From: Candidatus Brennerbacteria bacterium
GTDB lineage: Bacteria; Patescibacteriota; Minisyncoccia; UBA6257; GWB1-50-10
NCBI GenBank assembly: GCA_016183535.1
Contig: JACPEK010000002.1
Span: forward strand, 1,382 to 65,381
DNA: 64,000 nucleotides
Direction of reading: 5' to 3'
Within the stretch, counting starts at the first letter, position 1. The number at the start of each line of letters is the position of its first letter. The position numbers and the translations under genes were made by a program. Under the pieces are notes generated by a model that had not been told where the DNA came from, did no database searches, and was given only the letters and a program-made list of their open reading frames with translations. This document shows positions 6,402-49,431 of the stretch, piece by piece.

Positions 6402-6638
6402 TGGGTTTCGTATCGATTTCATCGATATCAACCCTCGTTCGGGAAAAAAAGAAGATAGCAGTATTTTCTTTTATTCTCGTTTTTGACCCTATAGTAAGGT
6501 GGTATTATGCGGTCCCGCCCACACTACTTTGTATAGCGGGATTGCGATTGGTAGATAGAAACCTTACGATTTCTATACCAATCGGAAACATTCGCACCGT
6601 GCCCCGCGCTCAATTTCGCCATAGCTCTTTCCAACGAA

Positions 6639-6712
6639 GGGCCTATGGTTCAGTGGTAGAACACGGCATTCGCATTGCCGGGACGGCGGTTCGATTCCGC
6701 CTAGGTCCACCA
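6639..6712 (+). tRNA. tRNA-Ala (anticodon CGC), CCA encoded
   Basis: Acceptor GGGCCTA/TAGGTCC with the G3:U70 Ala identity pair. Anticodon loop TTCGCAT. T-arm GGCGG-TTCGATT-CCGCC. 3-prime ACCA. Confidence 0.75.
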
Positions 6713-6897
6713 GAAGGCGAAATTTTAGTGCGGGGTTGCCGTCGAGTTCGCGAGGAAGTGGCGGGGCGATTATTGTCCGAGCGTACGATTTTGGTTAGAG
6801 TCACCACGCGCTTCACGCATGGAATGTCAGCCAGGATTCTACTGGAAGTAAATCCGAACTTTTTGGTATAATGACCACCAAAGTTTATTTACGCCAC

Positions 6898-43821: not shown

Positions 43822-44052
43822 ATGGATCGTCTCAAACGCGCCTTGGACGGCATTCAAAAAATAAAGCTGACGCGACGCACCCTCTTTTCCGCTTTGGGGA
43901 TGGTGATGGCGGTAGTAGTAGTGGGCGTTATCGTATGGCTCTCTACGTTTCTCGCAAACCAAATCAACGAGGCTTTGACCGCTGACCCGCATGCCGCTCC
44001 CTCGGTGCGGTTTGACATCGAAGGTTTTGAGAAGTTACAACTAACGAAGTAG
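43822..44052 (+). CDS. Hypothetical small membrane protein (possible pilus-assembly partner)
   Basis: 76 aa with a single TM helix VMAVVVVGVIVWL; it follows the pilO-like gene. Confidence 0.35.
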   Translation: MDRLKRALDGIQKIKLTRRTLFSALGMVMAVVVVGVIVWLSTFLANQINEALTADPHAAPSVRFDIEGFEKLQLTK

Positions 44053-44055
44053 CGG

Positions 44056-44130
44056 TGGTGGGTGTGGAAGGAATCGAACCTTCGACCTCTGTCTTATCAG
44101 GACAGCGTTCTACCACTGAACTACACACCC
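44056..44130 (-). tRNA. tRNA-Ile (anticodon GAT), CCA encoded
   Basis: The reverse complement folds as GGGTGTG...CACACCC-A-CCA with anticodon loop CTGATAA and T-loop TTCGATT. Confidence 0.75.
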
Positions 44131-44184
44131 GAACGGATTCTATCGTGCCATTGTCGTCGTATTTTTTCAAGCGAAATAGTTATC

Positions 44185-44414
44185 GGGCCGTTAGCTCAGC
44201 GGTAGAGCACTTCATTGGTCCCGATATTGTTCAAATTTTCAATTTGATTACAATATCGAGGATCCCGTATGACTTTGGTGGGCCTATAGCTTAATGGTAG
44301 AGCACCCGGTTTGCATCCGGGAGACGCGGGTTCGATTCCCACTAGGTCCACAGGTCCACCAAAGTTATCGGGACAATGAAAGGGTCGCCGGTTCAAATCC
44401 GGCACGGTCCACCA
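44185..44414 (+). tRNA. Interrupted tRNA-Thr (anticodon GGT): 5-prime exon 44185-44219, a 155-nt intervening sequence, and a 3-prime exon 44375-44414 with CCA
   Basis: Exon 1 GGGCCGT-TA-GCTC-AGCGGTA-GAGC-A-CTTCA-TTGGT joined to exon 2 AA-TGAAA-GGGTC-GCCGG-TTCAAAT-CCGGC-ACGGTCC-A-CCA gives a canonical 75-nt cloverleaf with G3:U70 and loop TTGGTAA. The exact junction is ambiguous by 1-2 nt. Confidence 0.5.
44280..44350 (+). tRNA. tRNA-Ala (anticodon TGC)-like sequence embedded in the intervening sequence (possibly a pseudo-tRNA)
   Basis: GGGCCTA/TAGGTCC acceptor with G3:U70; anticodon loop TTTGCAT. The T-stem GCGGG/CCCAC has one C-A mismatch. There is no CCA after the discriminator; it is followed by a duplicated GGTCCACCA. 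Confidence 0.45.
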
Positions 44415-44462
44415 AAGTTATACACAAACTCCTGCGGGAGCGGGCGATATAATTAAAGAGAA

Positions 44463-44723
44463 ATGAATCGGTCTACCATCATCGCGATTGTAATAGCCCT
44501 TATTGCCGTTGCGGTAGGCGTCTATTACTTTACGGCCGATCTCGATACGACGCCGGAGGAGCGCGCGCTTACCGAAGCGGCGGATCTCCTCGCGGGAGAC
44601 GAGTCGAGCAACTTGTCGTCCGTGGTGGATACGAGCGTGAATCCGGTGGGGGAAACGCCCGACGTGAATCCGGTGGAGCGCGCGAATCCCTTTAGCGGCG
44701 TGAAGACTAATCCGTTCGAATAA
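44463..44723 (+). CDS. Hypothetical small secreted or membrane-anchored protein
   Basis: 86 aa with an N-terminal TM/signal anchor and an acidic, Pro-rich C-terminus. Confidence 0.4.
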   Translation: MNRSTIIAIVIALIAVAVGVYYFTADLDTTPEERALTEAADLLAGDESSNLSSVVDTSVNPVGETPDVNPVERANPFSGVKTNPFE

Positions 44724-44725
44724 AT

Positions 44726-46582
44726 ATGAAACGAGAACTTATCGCGAGCGCGTTGATACTCTTTGTCGGCATCGTGGTCGCGGGAGCGGTGGCGGTCGTG
44801 CCGGCACTCGCGCAAGAAGGGAATGTGGCGAAGATCGAGTTTCCCGTCGCGGAGCTTGGCAATTGCGGGAGCGAGCAGGCGTGCAAAACCTATTGCGACG
44901 ATCCTGCGCACATCAAAGCGTGTGTGAATTTCGCGGAGCAGAACGGTCTCATGTCGCGCGCGGAAGCCGCGACCGCGCGGAAGTTCGCGGAAGGCGCATT
45001 CAAAGGCCCCGGCGGATGCACGTCGCGAGAATCGTGCGAATCGTACTGCGACGACGTGAGTCGCATTAATGAATGTGTGGCGTTCGCTGAATCGCAGGGG
45101 TTTCTCCCTCCCGAAGAATTAGCGGAGGTAAAACAGGTGCAATCCGCCATTGCGCGGGGCGTGGTGCCGCCCGCGTGCGGGAACAAGCGCGCGTGTGAAA
45201 GTTACTGCCGCGCGCCCGCGCACATGCAGGAATGTATCGCGTTCGGCGAAGCGGCTGGCTTCATCAAGGGGCAGGAATTGGAAGATGCGAAGAAAGTTTT
45301 GGGCGCGATAGAGAAAGGCGTAACCCCGCCCCCGTGCGGCGGGAAAAAAGAGTGCGATACCTACTGCGGAGAGGAAGCGAATTTCCCGCAGTGTATCGCG
45401 TTCGCGGAGGCCGCGGGGTTCATGTCGAAGGAAGAAGTTGCAATAGCAAAGAAGACGGGCGGGAAAGGCCCTGGCGGGTGCCGCGGCGAAGAATGTAAAA
45501 CCTATTGCGACAATCCCGCGAATCAGGGAATATGCTTCGCCTTCGCGAAGGAACATGGCCTCTTGAAACAGGAGGATCTTCAAAGGATGGAGGAGGGGAA
45601 GGCAAAGTTTGCGGAAGGGCTCCGGCAGGCGCCGCCCGAGGTGGCGGAGTGCTTGAAATCAACGGTAGGCGAAGAAGTATTGAACAAGCTTGCCACGGAG
45701 GGCGGTATGCCCCCGCGGGACCTGGGCGAGAAAATGCGCGCGTGTTTCGAGAATTTCAGACCTCGCCCGTCCGAAGAGTTCCGCGAAGGTGGGCCCTCGC
45801 AGGGGAATTTTCAAGGGCCGCCCTCGTTCGGAGAAGGTTTTGGTGAATCGCAGGGCGCATTCAGCGGCCCGGGCGGATGCACGAGTCCGGAAGAGTGCCG
45901 TTCCTACTGCGAATCGAATCCGGAGGCGTGCGCTAACTTTGGCGGCGGGATGATAAGGGAAGGAAGAGAAATTCCGCGTCCCGGCGAAGTTCCTCATTTC
46001 GAAGACGGGTTTCAAAGGGGTCAGTTCCCTGCATGTTCATCGCCCGAAGAGTGCAAACAGCAGTTCGAGGGTCGGGGCGGTTTCCCGGGCGGAACATCGG
46101 AGGGAGCGTTTCCGGTTCCTCCCAACAACATGATGCCGCAGGAGTTTCAAAAACAGTTTGGTGATCAATACCGCGCGGAATTTGAAAAACAATATCAACA
46201 AGGAAATATGCTGCCTGCGGGTCTTTCTCCGCAATATCCGCAAGGAGCGATGCCGTCTGGTGTGATGATGCCGCAGTCGCCGATGCGGGAGTTTCAGGGC
46301 GCGCCGTATCCCGCGCCGGGCGCGTATCCGCAACCGACCGGCGGAACCTATCCCTCACCGAGCGCTTATCCTTCAGGTGCAGAAAGTTTCCAGCAGTATC
46401 AGCAGTATCAAGGAACGACCGGCGGCTATCCGCCTGCCCCGACCGGAGCGTCGGGACCGCCACCTTCTGGTGAATTTAACGCGCCGCCGCCCGAGTTTCA
46501 AAGCGCGCCGCCGCCGCCTCCTTCAAGCTTGGGTCCGCAGACGCTCCTCGGTCTCTTCCTCAACATCTTCCGCGGCGAGTAG
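44726..46582 (+). CDS. Secreted cysteine-rich repeat protein (at least 6 repeats of ~50 aa, C-x4-C-x3-C-x8-9-C) with a C-terminal Q/P/Y/G low-complexity tail
   Basis: Signal peptide ending ALAQEG. Repeat units include GxCxSxExCxxYCDxPxHxxxCxxFAExxGF. The last ~200 aa are proline/glutamine rich. Confidence 0.7.
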   Translation: MKRELIASALILFVGIVVAGAVAVVPALAQEGNVAKIEFPVAELGNCGSEQACKTYCDDPAHIKACVNFAEQNGLMSRAEAATARKFAEGAFKGPGGCTSRESCESYCDDVSRINECVAFAESQGFLPPEELAEVKQVQSAIARGVVPPACGNKRACESYCRAPAHMQECIAFGEAAGFIKGQELEDAKKVLGAIEKGVTPPPCGGKKECDTYCGEEANFPQCIAFAEAAGFMSKEEVAIAKKTGGKGPGGCRGEECKTYCDNPANQGICFAFAKEHGLLKQEDLQRMEEGKAKFAEGLRQAPPEVAECLKSTVGEEVLNKLATEGGMPPRDLGEKMRACFENFRPRPSEEFREGGPSQGNFQGPPSFGEGFGESQGAFSGPGGCTSPEECRSYCESNPEACANFGGGMIREGREIPRPGEVPHFEDGFQRGQFPACSSPEECKQQFEGRGGFPGGTSEGAFPVPPNNMMPQEFQKQFGDQYRAEFEKQYQQGNMLPAGLSPQYPQGAMPSGVMMPQSPMREFQGAPYPAPGAYPQPTGGTYPSPSAYPSGAESFQQYQQYQGTTGGYPPAPTGASGPPPSGEFNAPPPEFQSAPPPPPSSLGPQTLLGLFLNIFRGE

Positions 46583-47195: not shown

Positions 47196-47909
47196 TTAAT
47201 GAAGCGCTTCCTTGATTTGTTCGCGGACTTCTTTGCTGGCACGCAGGACGGGATTTTTCGAGGCGACCGCTATGACTCTTCCTTTTGCGTCGAAAACGTA
47301 ATCGTCCAGATACACGCCATTGCACACCTGACATTGCGGTATCGTGTTCGAGAGGGCGAGAGGTTTATGCGGATCCATATGCCCCTGTTGGAGCGCTGTT
47401 GTTTTGCCGGGCTCAAGAAAATTTGGCTTGTGTTCTTGTGAGCCGCACGTGGCGCAACGGAACCCGTACACTACTTTAAGTTGTGCAAAATCTTTTGCGG
47501 CAATACGCCCCGCGCGTTTCAGCGATTTGAAGAGAAACGTAGGCTTCGGACTTTCGGTAGTGATGAGAATATGGTAGCCGCTCGGCACCACTTCTTTTTT
47601 GTTCTGATATTTGTCGCCTTTATTAAGCACATACCATCCGTCGCTCGCCAGATGACGAACTTGCTGGTCTTTGCCCGCTTTCGGATTTACGCTCGCTACA
47701 AATGACGAAATGGTGTCTTTGTGGACGAGCGCGCCCTTGTTCTTCCGCAGGAAAATGAGCCACAAGGCTTTTATACTGTTCCTCGCCGGGAACTTCACGC
47801 TGTACGGCGAGAGGTGGGTTTTGTGTTCTGCTTCGAGTTTTCGGTACCAACTTTCTATTTCATCGGGGGACATATACACATGCCCTCCTTGCTTATCCAG
47901 TTTTTTCAT
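47196..47909 (-). CDS. HNH (His-Me finger) endonuclease, putative Type II restriction enzyme
   Basis: CATCGS...QQGHMDPHKP...NTIPQCQVCN (CxxC - H-x-DPH - N - CxxC). It overlaps the upstream methyltransferase gene by 17 nt in an AT-rich island. Confidence 0.6.
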   Translation of the reverse strand: MKKLDKQGGHVYMSPDEIESWYRKLEAEHKTHLSPYSVKFPARNSIKALWLIFLRKNKGALVHKDTISSFVASVNPKAGKDQQVRHLASDGWYVLNKGDKYQNKKEVVPSGYHILITTESPKPTFLFKSLKRAGRIAAKDFAQLKVVYGFRCATCGSQEHKPNFLEPGKTTALQQGHMDPHKPLALSNTIPQCQVCNGVYLDDYVFDAKGRVIAVASKNPVLRASKEVREQIKEALH

Positions 47910-49431
47910 AGTTTTTTAAACGCTTCTCCGCAATGGCGAAGTATTTTTTCTCTATTTCAAAACCGATGAATTTCCTATTTTTTCTCAAGGCGGCGACTCC
48001 TGTAGTGCCGCTTCCCATGAAGGGGTCGAAAACCGTTTGTTTCGGGGAGGTGAATATCTCAATCAGCCGCTCCATAAGGTCTATCGGTTTTATAGTCATG
48101 TGGTCAATGAGTTTTCTTGAGTTCGGTTTTTTATAGTTCAGCACGGTCGTTTGTTGCGATTCGGGAAAATCCGTTTGGATAAGTCCCGTGCGCCATGTGA
48201 GCCAGTTTTCGACGAATGTCCCTTCTTTCGGCTTGTGCGCGAGCAGAATCGCCTCGAATTTCGGTCGTAGTTGAGGGGTTTTTCTGTTTTCAAGGCTCTT
48301 GATAATCTGCTCTTTTTCGTGCGCGGGGATCTTCATCTTTTTCACGAAGTGGTTTTGAGTGAACGCTTTTCCTTGCCCGCCGTTATGCTCCCATATCAGC
48401 ATATCCCGTATTTCAAAACCGGCGTTTTCGGCCGCGAGCGCGAGACGGTGGAAGAGTCTTCCCTGCGAAAATGAGATCATAAATCCTCCGGGCTTGAGCA
48501 CTCGTAACGCTTCGTGGAAAACTTTGGTGAAAAATTTTTCGAGCTTTTTTCCTTGTTCAGGATCGAATTTCATGCCTACCGGGAGGCCTTGTATCGCTCC
48601 GGCCCTTGCCGATTTTTGTTTCAGTTTGGCATCCGACCACTCGTTGTCCATCCCATCAAGAAAATAAGGGGGATCGGTGGCGATAAAATCTACGCTGTTC
48701 GTGTCAATACTTTTGAATGCGTCCAAGCAGTCAGCGAGATAAATTGAGACGTTACGCCAAGTTTTTTTATCAACGATCTTTTTCCCGCTCGTTTTCTCGG
48801 CGACGCGTTCCGGTGTTATTGCGGGCGCGGATTTTTTGTTTCGGATAACGTCGACAAAAACACCTTGGATTGCAAAGTCCTTTTTTCCCCACTTGACGAT
48901 GATCGGCTCGAAGTTTTTGTTCGCGGGCTGAAGGCGAATTTGGTTCCTCTCCTTGTAGTAAGTTTTCAAAGTAGTGTCATAGTTATCGATGAGCGCGACC
49001 ACCTTCTGCCCGTTCTCCGCGACCGATTGATGGCGAACCAATATGATGTCGCTGTCATTGATATTTTCTTCGACCATACTCTCGCCTTGCACGCGCAACG
49101 CGTACACGTTGCCCGCATTCGGAATCCGGTTCGCGGGGACGGCGATCGTTTCGGTGGGTGTATCGAAGAGCGTGAGCGGTTGTCCGGCAACGATGGTGCC
49201 GAGTAGGGGAATTTGAACCATGGAGGTTGCTTCAAATATCTGCACCCCTCTTCGTTGGTTTTTGTTCAGCTGAAGGTATCCCGCGTCCTCCAAATTTTGG
49301 AGATGTTCATGCACAGTGCCGACCGCTCGCTTGAGGCCGGCGGCTATCTCGGGGATGGAAGGGGAGTATCCGCGCCTCCGCGCGTATTTAGTAACAAAGT
49401 CGAGCACCTCTTTTTTCTTATCGGTGAGCAT
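47893..49431 (-). CDS. Fusion protein: full-length LexA-like repressor (wHTH plus S24 autopeptidase) joined to a beta-class N6A/N4C DNA methyltransferase
   Basis: aa 1-205 form a LexA domain (MLTDKKKEVLDFV...PSIPEIAAGL; IPLLGTIVAGQP; GESM Ser and KTYY Lys). From aa ~225 onward it is an MTase (SVDFIATDPPYF motif IV, FDPFMGSGTT motif I). It is a single 512-codon ORF with no internal stop. Confidence 0.65.
   Translation of the reverse strand: MLTDKKKEVLDFVTKYARRRGYSPSIPEIAAGLKRAVGTVHEHLQNLEDAGYLQLNKNQRRGVQIFEATSMVQIPLLGTIVAGQPLTLFDTPTETIAVPANRIPNAGNVYALRVQGESMVEENINDSDIILVRHQSVAENGQKVVALIDNYDTTLKTYYKERNQIRLQPANKNFEPIIVKWGKKDFAIQGVFVDVIRNKKSAPAITPERVAEKTSGKKIVDKKTWRNVSIYLADCLDAFKSIDTNSVDFIATDPPYFLDGMDNEWSDAKLKQKSARAGAIQGLPVGMKFDPEQGKKLEKFFTKVFHEALRVLKPGGFMISFSQGRLFHRLALAAENAGFEIRDMLIWEHNGGQGKAFTQNHFVKKMKIPAHEKEQIIKSLENRKTPQLRPKFEAILLAHKPKEGTFVENWLTWRTGLIQTDFPESQQTTVLNYKKPNSRKLIDHMTIKPIDLMERLIEIFTSPKQTVFDPFMGSGTTGVAALRKNRKFIGFEIEKKYFAIAEKRLKNYEKTG

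What the first reader, a model, noticed from the sequence alone, without database searches (positions are those of the whole stretch)
44177..44420. Composite tRNA locus: tRNA-Thr(GGT) split by a 155-nt intervening sequence that contains a tRNA-Ala(TGC)-like element
Joining 44185-44219 to 44375-44414 yields a textbook 75-nt tRNA-Thr with anticodon loop TTGGTAA, a G3:U70 pair and an encoded CCA. The intervening 155 nt carry a strong hairpin (CGATATTG...CAATATCG) and a near-complete tRNA-Ala(TGC) (44280-44350). The flanks are duplicated: AGTTATCGGG occurs at 44177 and 44362, and GGTCCACCAAAGTTAT at 44352 and 44405. The intervening sequence is far too short for a group I intron, and bacterial tRNAs are not known to carry BHB-type introns. 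The alternatives are a novel small tRNA intron in the anticodon loop, a mobile tRNA-borne insertion, or a rearranged tRNA array in which a pseudo-Thr or pseudo-Ala remains. In any of these cases the organism needs a functional tRNA-Thr(GGT) from somewhere.
Basis: seen in the sequence. Interest (0 to 1): 0.75.

Follow-up and report, generated by a model that had tools for sequence, protein, structure and literature searches.

The report
Broken tRNA-Ala gene carrying its replacement
The supposed split tRNA-Thr is really a tRNA-Ala gene cut open in its anticodon by a small mobile DNA element that brings its own working tRNA-Ala gene, and related bacteria carry the same element with a nuclease gene, sometimes nested three deep.

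Summary
The sequence features are real, with coordinates off by one base. The tRNA-Thr reading comes from an arbitrary choice of splice register. Three equally long (155-nt) excisions give Val(GAC), Ala(GGC) or Thr(GGU). The two outer halves (44185-44218 and 44374-44414) match intact tRNA-Ala(UGC) genes of relatives at 67 of 72 positions and carry the alanine identity pair G3:U70.

The 155-nt insert (44219-44373) lies between anticodon positions 35 and 36. It is not a group I or bulge-helix-bulge intron. It is an ORF-less copy of an element bounded by inverted repeats (TCCCGAT...ATCGGGA). In relatives this element encodes an 83-128-aa GIY-YIG nuclease and always carries a complete tRNA-Ala of the same isoacceptor as the gene it interrupts.

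In L074 the element is nested three levels deep. In L088 a CGC version sits in a tRNA-Ala(CGC) gene. In L079 the same element occurs with no tRNA nearby. In at least four of the other loci the outer halves are broken further, so they look like dead remnants rather than exons.

Best reading: a nuclease-driven insertion that supplies its own replacement tRNA gene. This is a new variant of known mobile-element biology. The mechanism is inferred, not shown.

The parts
44185..44218 (+). Outer tRNA-Ala gene ('Y'), 5' half: positions 1-35, ending at anticodon nucleotide 35
   Evidence: It is identical to the 5' half of the intact tRNA-Ala(UGC) genes of L006, L039 and L066 except at D-loop nucleotide 16 and anticodon nucleotide 34, which is G here and T there. 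It matches the interrupted Y of L070 at 32 of 34 positions.
44219..44373 (+). 155-nt insertion: an ORF-less derivative of a GIY-YIG element bounded by inverted repeats (TCCCGAT...ATCGGGA)
   Evidence: The boundaries come from comparison with intact orthologues. The insert is 91.7% identical to insert E2 of L074, while the flanking host halves are 61.8% and 55.3% identical. The same 5' end lies at the same site in L057/L070, followed there by a GIY-YIG ORF.
44219..44262 (.). Unit A: hairpin TCCCGATATTGTTCAAAT...ATTTGATTACAATATCGAGGA, the collapsed arms that flank the nuclease ORF in full-length copies
   Evidence: It aligns to the 5' UTR and the last ~25 nt of the ORF region of L070 and L074-E1. 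It is 93.5% identical to unit A of L074-E2. It is the only strict TCCnCGAT..ATCGnGGA unit of 250 nt or less in the window.
44263..44279 (+). Leader: left arm of unit B (TCCCGTATGACTTTGGT). Together with the first bases of the inner tRNA it pairs with the trailer.
   Evidence: It forms a duplex of about 22 bp with the trailer at -37.4 kcal/mol. The centre of the duplex covaries among four elements.
44280..44351 (+). Inner tRNA-Ala(UGC) 'X': complete and presumably the functional gene
   Evidence: ARAGORN calls it and Rfam RF00005 gives 69.3 bits. It matches X of L074 at 70 of 72 positions.
44344..44359 (+). Tandem 8-nt duplication AGGTCCAC AGGTCCAC at the 3' end of X. It creates a second acceptor-3'-strand copy followed by CCA.
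   Evidence: Read directly from the sequence.
44352..44373 (+). Trailer: right arm of unit B (AGGTCCACCAAAGTTATCGGGA), ending in the right terminal repeat ATCGGGA
Evidence: Its reverse complement begins GTCCCGAT, the same as the element's 5' end. It pairs with the leader.
44374..44414 (+). Outer tRNA-Ala gene 'Y', 3' half: positions 36-76 including the encoded CCA
   Evidence: It matches L039 and L006 tRNA-Ala(UGC) except for G43A, which creates a C27-A43 mismatch, and one compensated T-stem pair.
44178..44187 (+). Direct repeat AGTTATCGGG (the other copy is at 44363-44372): the leader of Y resembles the 3' end of the element
   Evidence: repeat family D7. Its origin is unresolved.
44406..44421 (+). 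Direct repeat GGTCCACCAAAGTTAT (the other copy is at 44353-44368): the 3' end and trailer of Y are mimicked by the element's trailer
   Evidence: repeat family D4.

Best explanation
The locus is the resident tRNA-Ala(UGC) gene of a Candidatus Brennerbacteria genome (Patescibacteria). A small mobile DNA element has interrupted it exactly between anticodon nucleotides 35 and 36 (TTxG^CAA).

Full-length copies of the element consist of two tandem units, each bounded by inverted repeats:
- Unit A (TCCnCGAT...ATCGnGGA) holds an 83-128-aa GIY-YIG (UPF0213-like) nuclease gene.
- Unit B (TCCnCGAT...ATCGGGA) holds a complete tRNA-Ala gene at the tip of a stem of about 22 bp.

The window's copy has lost the nuclease ORF, so unit A has collapsed to a hairpin, but it keeps the tRNA.

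Inferred mechanism:
1. The nuclease cuts the DNA of the tRNA-Ala anticodon loop.
2. The element is copied into the break, by homing or a transposition-like repair.
3. The resident gene is destroyed.
4. The cargo tRNA-Ala takes over its function, which makes the insertion tolerable and hard to lose.
5. Because the cargo recreates the target site, it can be invaded again, which gives nested genes.

The outer halves are then dead remnants, not exons.

Shown: the anatomy, the shared insertion site, the mobility of the insert between different host tRNAs, the match between cargo and target isoacceptor, the nesting, and the decay of outer halves. Inferred: cleavage specificity, the copying mechanism, and that X is the expressed gene.
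For: - Orthology. The joined outer halves match L039 tRNA-Ala(UGC) at 67 of 72 positions and carry G3:U70 and A73.
- Same site and same 5' end with a nuclease ORF. L057/L070 read ...CATTTG|TCCCGAT..ATG, followed by a GIY-YIG ORF. L074 has an intact 91-aa ORF, P0009, with Pfam PF01541.
- Nesting. L074 has three levels, each junction being TTTG|TCCCGAT...ATCGGGA|CA, and only the innermost tRNA is intact.
- Mobility. The insert is 91.7% identical between the window and L074, but the host halves are 62% and 55% identical. Third codon positions of the neighbouring gene are about 50% identical.
- Isoacceptor match. L088 has a tRNA-Ala(CGC) cut at TTCG|...|CAT by an element that carries an intact tRNA-Ala(CGC).
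- DNA element rather than tRNA intron. L079-L086 have the same element with its ORF in an intergenic site with no tRNA.
- Decay of outer halves. L005, L075, L087 and L088 have extra insertions or missing parts, and L074 has C6-A67 mismatches.
- Empty sites exist in L006, L039 and L066.
- ORF loss is visible. In L075 the ORF was deleted between ATTTAATAAAT repeats, and the window's unit A aligns to both ORF flanks.
- No group I signal.
- Published context: GIY-YIG genes in CPR rRNA insertions lie in sequences that resemble neither group I nor group II introns (PMC11270868).
Against: - No nuclease gene lies in or near the window's copy, and no cleavage data exist for this GIY-YIG family.
- Only one strict unit is present in the 64-kb window, so activity in this genome is unproven.
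- The window's outer halves are nearly intact, with one stem mismatch and one anticodon change. They are much better conserved than neighbouring neutral sequence, which could mean recent insertion or retained function.
- The 22-bp leader/trailer stem covaries, which would also fit a selected RNA structure.
- No target-site duplication is seen, and no donor/recipient pair with identical flanks was found, so homing and transposition cannot be told apart.
- Independent assemblies of the same organism (Logan contigs) break at 44087 and 44383/44386 and do not span the locus.
Confidence: 0.78

Rival explanations
1. It is a genuine, new kind of bacterial tRNA intron. The 155 nt would be removed from the RNA and the halves ligated, giving tRNA-Ala(GGC) in this genome. 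The inner tRNA-Ala(UGC) would be released from the excised piece by RNase P and RNase Z, with the leader/trailer duplex holding the halves together.
For: - Excision between positions 35 and 36 gives a canonical 7-nt loop UUGGCAA on a body with alanine identity.
- The outer arms are almost intact.
- The anticodon stem, the terminal repeats and the leader/trailer stem form one long nested helix with z = -7.4.
- The leader/trailer stem covaries.
- The outer 5' half is 94% conserved against L070, compared with about 74% for the adjacent spacer.
- Self-splicing introns at 35/36 do exist in Patescibacteria tRNAs (PMC13011429).
Against: - No group I match.
- For the register that restores an alanine anticodon, the 5' exon ends in G and the insert ends in A. 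Group I introns need U and G (rule as stated in PMC13011429).
- Only about 83 nt are neither tRNA nor exon, which is too little for a catalytic core.
- The two junctions lie directly opposite each other in a helix, so there is no BHB motif.
- The same element sits in a site with no tRNA.
- The outer halves in L005, L075, L087 and L088 are irreparably broken.
- The window's outer gene has a C27-A43 mismatch.
Confidence: 0.07
2. It is a local rearrangement of a tandem tRNA-Ala array by duplication, deletion or recombination between similar genes. No mobile element would be involved, and a pseudo-tRNA would be left around a live one.
For: - Tandem tRNA-Ala genes exist in relatives. L039 has Val(GAC), Ala(GGC) and Ala(UGC) with no spacer between them.
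- Direct repeats link the flanks of Y with the trailer of X.
- There is an 8-nt tandem duplication at 44344-44359.
- tRNA-Ile is inverted relative to L005, L006 and L073, which shows that the locus has rearranged.
Against: - The same insert, with the same ends, occurs in different host tRNAs and different species at the same phosphodiester bond.
- It has terminal inverted repeats, and full-length relatives encode a nuclease.
- It also occurs away from tRNAs.
Confidence: 0.05
3. It is a remnant of site-specific integration: attachment-site scars of an integrase-bearing island that used the tRNA-Ala gene as its target.
For: - In L005 a 529-aa large serine recombinase (Resolvase plus Zn_ribbon_recom domains) runs antisense into the tRNA-Ala gene.
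- tRNA genes are classic integration sites.
- The genes downstream in the window include a methyltransferase and a possible restriction enzyme.
Against: - No integrase lies near the window's locus.
- No repeat of the tRNA fragments occurs elsewhere in the 64 kb.
- Only 155 nt lie between the halves.
- The boundaries are inverted repeats, not direct attachment-site cores.
Confidence: 0.04
4. It is an assembly chimera caused by the short direct repeats.
For: Logan contigs of the same organism end at 44087 and start at 44383/44386, so none spans the locus.
Against: - The repeats are only 10 and 16 nt long.
- The complete insert with both junction types is reproduced at 91.7% identity in an independent NCBI MAG (L074). 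Homologous architectures occur in JGI, ENA and Logan assemblies.
Confidence: 0.03

Closest known systems
Free-standing GIY-YIG homing endonucleases in tRNA gene clusters (phage T4 SegB; 'intronless homing')
   Same: Both involve a small GIY-YIG nuclease gene lying among tRNA genes. In both, the nuclease gene and the flanking tRNA sequence are inherited together. For T4 SegB this is driven by a cut in the rival tRNA allele (PMC2330249); here such a cut is only inferred. The exchange of outer-half types between L074 (Z) and the window (Y) behind a shared upstream spacer looks like co-conversion.
   Different: - This nuclease belongs to the short UPF0213/YhbQ-like branch. Its nearest solved relatives are 1zg2 and 1ywl.
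- The element has terminal inverted repeats.
- It sits inside the anticodon loop.
- It carries a whole replacement tRNA.
- It nests.
- It is chromosomal, in Patescibacteria, not in a phage.
Group I introns at position 35/36 of Patescibacteria tRNA genes (Nakagawa et al. 2026, PMC13011429)
   Same: Same phylum, same unusual insertion position (35/36), and the same annotation problem: ARAGORN shifts the boundary and names the wrong amino acid.
   Different: [quoted passage not shown] This insert has no group I match, has G/A junctions, is too short, contains a tRNA, and its host halves decay.
GIY-YIG-encoding insertion sequences in CPR rRNA genes that are neither group I nor group II introns (PMC11270868)
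   Same: Both are non-intron insertions that encode GIY-YIG proteins inside structural RNA genes of the same radiation.
   Different: Those are in rRNA, scattered over sites, and no cargo gene is reported. I could not compare sequences, so it is untested whether they are the same element family.
Integrative elements that restore the tRNA gene they integrate into
   Same: The insertion repairs the damage it causes to a tRNA gene by bringing tRNA sequence with it.
   Different: Those elements duplicate only the 3' part, use tyrosine or serine integrases, and leave direct repeats. This one brings a complete second gene, has inverted repeats, and uses a GIY-YIG nuclease.
MITEs and ORF-less derivatives of autonomous elements; nested introns (twintrons)
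   Same: The ORF-less copy keeps the terminal repeats of the full element (window, L074-E2, and the mini-dimers of L075, L087 and L088). Nesting by re-insertion resembles twintrons.
   Different: No transposase and no target-site duplication are present. The nesting is of genes within dead genes, not of spliced introns.

Membership tests
tRNA-Thr(GGU) gene | Orthology to tRNA-Thr and threonine identity elements (C2:G71, anticodon G35 U36) | tested here: not met
   The body matches tRNA-Ala(UGC) of L039 at 67 of 72 positions. The 2:71 pair is G:C, and G3:U70 with A73 is present. GGU arises in only one of three equally valid registers. The identity rules come from established knowledge.
tRNA-Ala gene (outer halves) | G3:U70 in the acceptor stem, and sequence orthology to intact tRNA-Ala genes at the syntenic position | tested here: met
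   G3:U70 was seen. The syntenic pair tRNA-Ile then tRNA-Ala(UGC) is present in L005, L006, L008-L010 and L073.
Group I intron | Match to the group I covariance model or catalytic core | tested here: not met
   No Intron_gpI hit was found at the gathering threshold in the window, at E<=10 in 43900-44700, or at E<=1 in the L074 nested locus.
Group I intron | 5' exon ends in U and the intron ends in G, in the register that restores the orthologous anticodon | tested here: not met
   The junctions are G35|UCCCGAU...AUCGGGA|C36. The rule is as stated in PMC13011429.
Archaeal-type BHB intron | Two 3-nt bulges separated by a 4-bp helix at the splice sites | tested here: not met
   In the predicted fold the two junctions face each other across a near-continuous helix with a single bulged base.
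Archaeal-type BHB intron | A splicing endonuclease and ligase encoded in the genome | not testable with these tools
   Only 64 kb of the genome is available.
Homing-endonuclease mobile element (GIY-YIG) | Encodes a GIY-YIG nuclease | tested here: inconclusive
   The ORF is absent from the window's copy: tblastn found no GIY-YIG in the window. It is present at the homologous position in L070, L074, L075, L087 and L088 (PF01541). The window's copy is an ORF-less derivative.
Homing-endonuclease mobile element (GIY-YIG) | Occupied and empty alleles of one conserved target site | tested here: met
   Occupied: window, L070, L074 (twice), L075, L087 and L088. Empty: L006, L039 and L066.
Homing-endonuclease mobile element (GIY-YIG) | The nuclease cleaves the empty target site | not testable with these tools
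   This needs biochemistry.
TIR transposon / MITE | Terminal inverted repeats | tested here: met
   GTCCCGATA and TATCGGGAC match at 9 of 9 positions (pair I9). The same ends occur in L074, L075, L079 and L088.
TIR transposon / MITE | Target-site duplication and a transposase | tested here: not met
   No duplication is seen at any of the junctions examined. The only ORF is a GIY-YIG nuclease.
Integrase-mediated island in a tRNA gene | An integrase, plus direct repeats of the tRNA fragment bounding an island | tested here: not met
   No second copy of the tRNA fragments occurs in the window, and no integrase lies next to the locus. A serine recombinase is present only in L005.

The most novel reading that the evidence does not exclude
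The insertion could be removed at the RNA level by a mechanism that is neither group I nor BHB. For example, cuts across the terminal helix could be followed by ligation, with the leader/trailer duplex holding the halves together after RNase P and RNase Z release the inner tRNA. One transcript would then yield two or more tRNA-Ala species, here UGC from the inner gene and GGC from the outer. That would be a new class of bacterial tRNA intron that carries a tRNA.
Probability: 0.06. Interest if true: 0.9.

Novelty: new variant of a known kind. Interest (0 to 1): 0.66.

Why it matters
- **A different solution to an old problem.** It shows a way for a selfish element to live inside an essential single-copy RNA gene without splicing. 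The element brings a spare copy of the gene it breaks. The host can then lose the element only by precise excision, and the element recreates its own target, so insertions can stack like nested dolls.
- **Annotation.** tRNA finders run with intron options will report phantom intron-containing tRNA-Val, tRNA-Thr or tRNA-SeC genes at such loci in Patescibacteria. Standard runs will silently miss the remnants.
- **A role for an uncharacterised protein family.** The short UPF0213-like GIY-YIG proteins gave 4877 cluster representatives at E<=0.001. This finding suggests a concrete, testable role and target, the tRNA-Ala anticodon-loop DNA. It may also link to the unexplained GIY-YIG insertions in CPR rRNA genes.

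Tried and rejected
- **Rfam scans.** A gathering scan of the window and permissive scans of 43900-44700 and of L074 5700-6700 gave only tRNA hits plus chance matches. No intron, tmRNA or other family was found.
- **tmRNA-like idea.** I considered this because of the G3:U70 acceptor and the long arm in place of the anticodon stem. I dropped it because there is no tag ORF, no pseudoknots and no Rfam hit.
- **Metagenome scan.** The scan with the outer 5' pattern returned 30 loci. Of these, 27 were unrelated tRNA-Val(CAC) genes and only L039, L057 and L066 were informative.
- **Viral-contig scans.** The two junction patterns gave 183 matches, none in a tRNA context, so they are chance hits. The core-palindrome pattern gave one mini-dimer, in L089.
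- **Promoter and terminator scan.** Nothing beyond chance was found in 43950-44600, so my idea that unit A supplies a promoter is unsupported.
- **Failed look-up.** The 110-aa ORF was not on record because the gene is called as 76 aa.
- **Logan contigs of the same organism.** None spans the locus.
- **MAFFT alignment of leader and trailer.** It misplaced a gap, so I scored the duplexes per element instead.
- **Origin of the two direct repeats.** The origin of the repeats that link Y's own flanks to the element's trailer remains unexplained. It could be gene conversion, or the trailer may derive from an old tandem tRNA junction.

Full report
**1. What is in the sequence**

- Bases 44185-44218 and 44374-44414 form an acceptor stem GGGCCGT/ACGGTCC with G3:U70, discriminator A73 and an encoded CCA. 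They also form intact D and T arms.
- Between them lie 155 nt. These contain a hairpin (44222-44230 with 44250-44258) and a complete tRNA-Ala(TGC) at 44280-44351. ARAGORN calls this tRNA, and Rfam gives 69.3 bits against a threshold of 29.
- The direct repeats are at 44178/44363 (10 nt) and 44353/44406 (16 nt).
- The whole locus folds at -105.4 kcal/mol, with z = -7.4 against shuffles.

**2. The tRNA-Thr reading is a register artefact**

ARAGORN with introns allowed finds the outer gene with a 155-nt insert but calls it tRNA-Val(GAC). Removing 155 nt in three neighbouring registers gives Val(GAC), Ala(GGC) or Thr(GGT). The sequence alone therefore cannot name the anticodon.

**3. Orthology settles the identity**

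The window comes from a Candidatus Brennerbacteria MAG. Relatives were found through the neighbouring DprA gene. They carry tRNA-Ile(GAT) followed by tRNA-Ala(UGC) at the syntenic place.

The intact tRNA-Ala(UGC) genes of L006, L039 and L066 match the joined outer halves almost exactly. Against L039, 67 of 72 positions are identical. The differences are:
- one D-loop base;
- anticodon base 34 (G here, T there);
- G43A, which creates a C27-A43 mismatch;
- one compensated T-stem pair.

The outer gene is therefore an interrupted tRNA-Ala. The insert occupies 44219-44373, between anticodon positions 35 and 36.

**4. The insert is a mobile element**

*L057/L070.* This is the closest syntenic relative. 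It has the same two upstream ORFs and the same inverted tRNA-Ile. Its outer 5' half is the same and is followed, at the same bond, by TCCCGAT, a short UTR and a GIY-YIG ORF. That ORF carries one in-frame TAG. The contig ends at ...ATCGAGGATCC, exactly where the window continues into the leader of the inner tRNA. The window's 44-nt 'hairpin' aligns to the sequences on both sides of that ORF, so it is what remains after ORF loss.

*L074.* This is an NCBI MAG labelled Jorgensenbacteria, and it shares gene order with the window from TopA to the C39 peptidase. It holds the complete picture:
- The outer tRNA-Ala 5' half ends in TTTG.
- Element E1 follows, with an intact 91-aa GIY-YIG gene (P0009, 82% identical to the L070 ORF).
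- A second tRNA-Ala 5' half follows, also ending in TTTG.
- Element E2 follows. It has no ORF and is 157 nt long.
- The intact tRNA-Ala(UGC) comes next.
- Then come the E2 end ATCGGGA, the second 3' half, the E1 end ATCGGGA, and the first 3' half.

E2 of L074 and the window's insert are 91.7% identical, while the host halves around them are 61.8% and 55.3% identical. Third codon positions of the adjacent gene are about 50% identical, and the adjacent spacer is 80% identical. A discrete unit has therefore ended up in different host tRNAs, either recently or under strong constraint.

**5. The pattern is general**
- L088 has a tRNA-Ala(CGC) cut at TTCG|TCCCGAT. The element there carries a GIY-YIG gene and an intact tRNA-Ala(CGC), so cargo and target are the same isoacceptor. 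The outer 3' half has decayed.
- L087 has an outer tRNA-Ala 5' half with a mini-element in the D loop and the nuclease element at 35/36. The 5' half of its inner tRNA is identical to the outer one.
- L075-L078 are four independent assemblies. They show an intact tRNA-Ala surrounded by halves broken again in the D stem, D loop and T loop. They also show an ORF-less copy formed by deletion between ATTTAATAAAT repeats.
- L079-L086 have the same element in an intergenic site with no tRNA. It consists of GTCCCGAT, the ORF, ATCGTGGATCCACGAT, a small hairpin and ATCGGGAC.
- L005, the nearest GTDB relative, has only a 5' remnant of the Y-type gene with a 31-nt palindrome in its D loop. A different GIY-YIG gene (Pfam E = 1.6e-12) follows, then an intact tRNA-Ala. 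A large serine recombinase lies on the far side.
- The common architecture is two tandem inverted-repeat units joined at GGATCC. Unit A holds the ORF, and unit B holds the tRNA or a small hairpin.

**6. The stem around the cargo tRNA**

In four elements the leader, together with the first bases of the tRNA, pairs with the trailer over about 22 bp (-37 to -43 kcal/mol). The central bases differ between elements:
- ATGACTTTGG (window E2)
- ATAACTCTGG (L074 E2)
- ATTAATCTTGG (L074 E1)
- ATATTCTTGG (L088)

Each version is matched on the other arm. The constraint could act on the DNA (inverted repeats or a cruciform) or on the RNA (a processing stem). I cannot tell which.

**7. Why it is not an intron**
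- No group I model matches.
- In the register that restores an alanine anticodon, the junctions are G|U...A|C. The published Patescibacteria 35/36 introns have U...G junctions (PMC13011429).
- Only about 83 nt of the insert are not tRNA.
- The junctions face each other in a helix, so there is no bulge-helix-bulge motif.
- The element also lives outside tRNAs.
- In at least four of the other loci the outer halves could not make a tRNA even if the 35/36 insert were removed.
- In L074 both outer acceptor stems carry a C6-A67 mismatch.

**8. Most likely mechanism (inferred)**

The GIY-YIG nuclease cuts the DNA of the tRNA-Ala anticodon loop. The site TTG^CAA is a palindrome and the element's ends extend it. 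The element is then copied into the break, and the cargo tRNA replaces the destroyed gene. Because the cargo carries the same site, it can be invaded again, which explains the nesting. ORF-less copies such as the window's persist because they hold the working gene.

Behind a conserved upstream spacer, L074 has a Z-type outer 5' half and the window has a Y-type one. This looks like the co-conversion of flanks that accompanies homing.

**9. Relation to known work**
- The closest working analogue is T4 SegB, a GIY-YIG nuclease in a tRNA cluster that drives inheritance of neighbouring tRNA genes (PMC2330249).
- The same phylum has true group I introns at 35/36, with the same mis-annotation problem (PMC13011429).
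- GIY-YIG proteins in CPR rRNA insertions were reported to lie in sequences 'not similar to either intron' (PMC11270868).
- My literature searches found no description of a tRNA-carrying, nesting element of this kind. This library does not cover most subscription journals.
- The nuclease belongs to the UPF0213-like branch. Its nearest solved structures are 1zg2 and 1ywl. The search of cluster representatives gave 4877 hits at E<=0.001 and 403 at E<=1e-10.

**10. Caveats**
- The window's copy has no nuclease, and only one strict unit occurs in the 64 kb.
- No contig from the independent Logan assemblies spans the locus.
- The mechanism of insertion is unproven.
- The window's outer halves are well preserved, so the intron reading keeps a small probability.

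**Verdict**

It is a tRNA-Ala gene interrupted by an ORF-less member of a GIY-YIG element family that carries its own replacement tRNA-Ala. This is a new variant of known mobile-element biology and of moderate to high interest.

Noticed in passing
window 6485-6735: A second, more decayed instance lies next to tRNA-Ala(CGC) (6639-6712). In order it contains: a pseudo tRNA-Ala-like 5' part (6485-6512); two small hairpin units, TCCCGCC..GCGGGA and TTGCGAT..ATCGGAA; an anticodon-loop remnant, ACATTCGCACC; and a leader (about 6603-6621) complementary to a trailer (6716-6735) that together enclose the intact tRNA. ARAGORN with introns mis-calls 6485-6712 as tRNA-SeC with a 133-nt intron.
   Followed up: partly
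window 44056-44130: tRNA-Ile(GAT) is inverted relative to L005, L006 and L073. There, Ile and Ala lie on the same strand, 8 to about 360 nt apart. The window's orientation is shared with L070 and L074, so the inversion marks the sub-lineage that carries the anticodon-loop element.
   Followed up: partly
window 47893-49431 (-) and 47196-47909 (-): A 512-aa ORF fuses a LexA DNA-binding domain and an S24 peptidase domain to an N6/N4 DNA methyltransferase. Next to it is a 237-aa ORF with Cys/His motifs and no Pfam match, possibly the cognate nuclease. This would be an SOS-type repressor fused to a methylase.
   Followed up: partly
window 44726-46582 (+): A 618-aa secreted-looking protein is built of repeated Cys-rich modules (C..C..YC....H...C..FAE) with a Pro/Gln/Tyr-rich tail. 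It has no Pfam match. A 500-aa counterpart occupies the same position in L074, followed by the same C39-type peptidase.
   Followed up: no
L005 1561-3150: A 529-aa large serine recombinase (Resolvase plus Zn_ribbon_recom) has its C-terminus translated from the antisense strand of the tRNA-Ala gene. This suggests a second kind of mobile element using the same tRNA-Ala locus in the nearest GTDB relative. The contig ends 1.5 kb beyond it.
   Followed up: partly
L073 about 2200-2300: Upstream of the intact tRNA-Ile(GAT) is a 9-nt copy of its 5' end (GGGCGCATA) followed by a small palindrome (TATCGACTCTGTCGATA). This hints that tRNA-Ile also suffers fragment-plus-hairpin events.
   Followed up: no
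L057/L070 (GIY-YIG ORF): There is an in-frame TAG after ...YYVGSCENV in an otherwise conserved nuclease ORF. It is identical in two JGI samples. It is either a recent inactivation or a read-through or recoding site.
   Followed up: no
L039 1592-1812: tRNA-Val(GAC), tRNA-Ala(GGC) and tRNA-Ala(UGC) are packed head to tail with no spacer, and another pair (Arg, Ser) likewise. Processing must cut exactly between the discriminator base of one tRNA and +1 of the next.
   Followed up: no
L089 14500-14560 (IMG/VR contig): A mini-dimer of the same repeat family (GGATCCCGAT..ATCGCGGATCCACGAT..ATCGGGAC) lies just after an ORF whose C-terminus resembles the L005-type GIY-YIG protein, on a contig classified as viral.
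   Followed up: no
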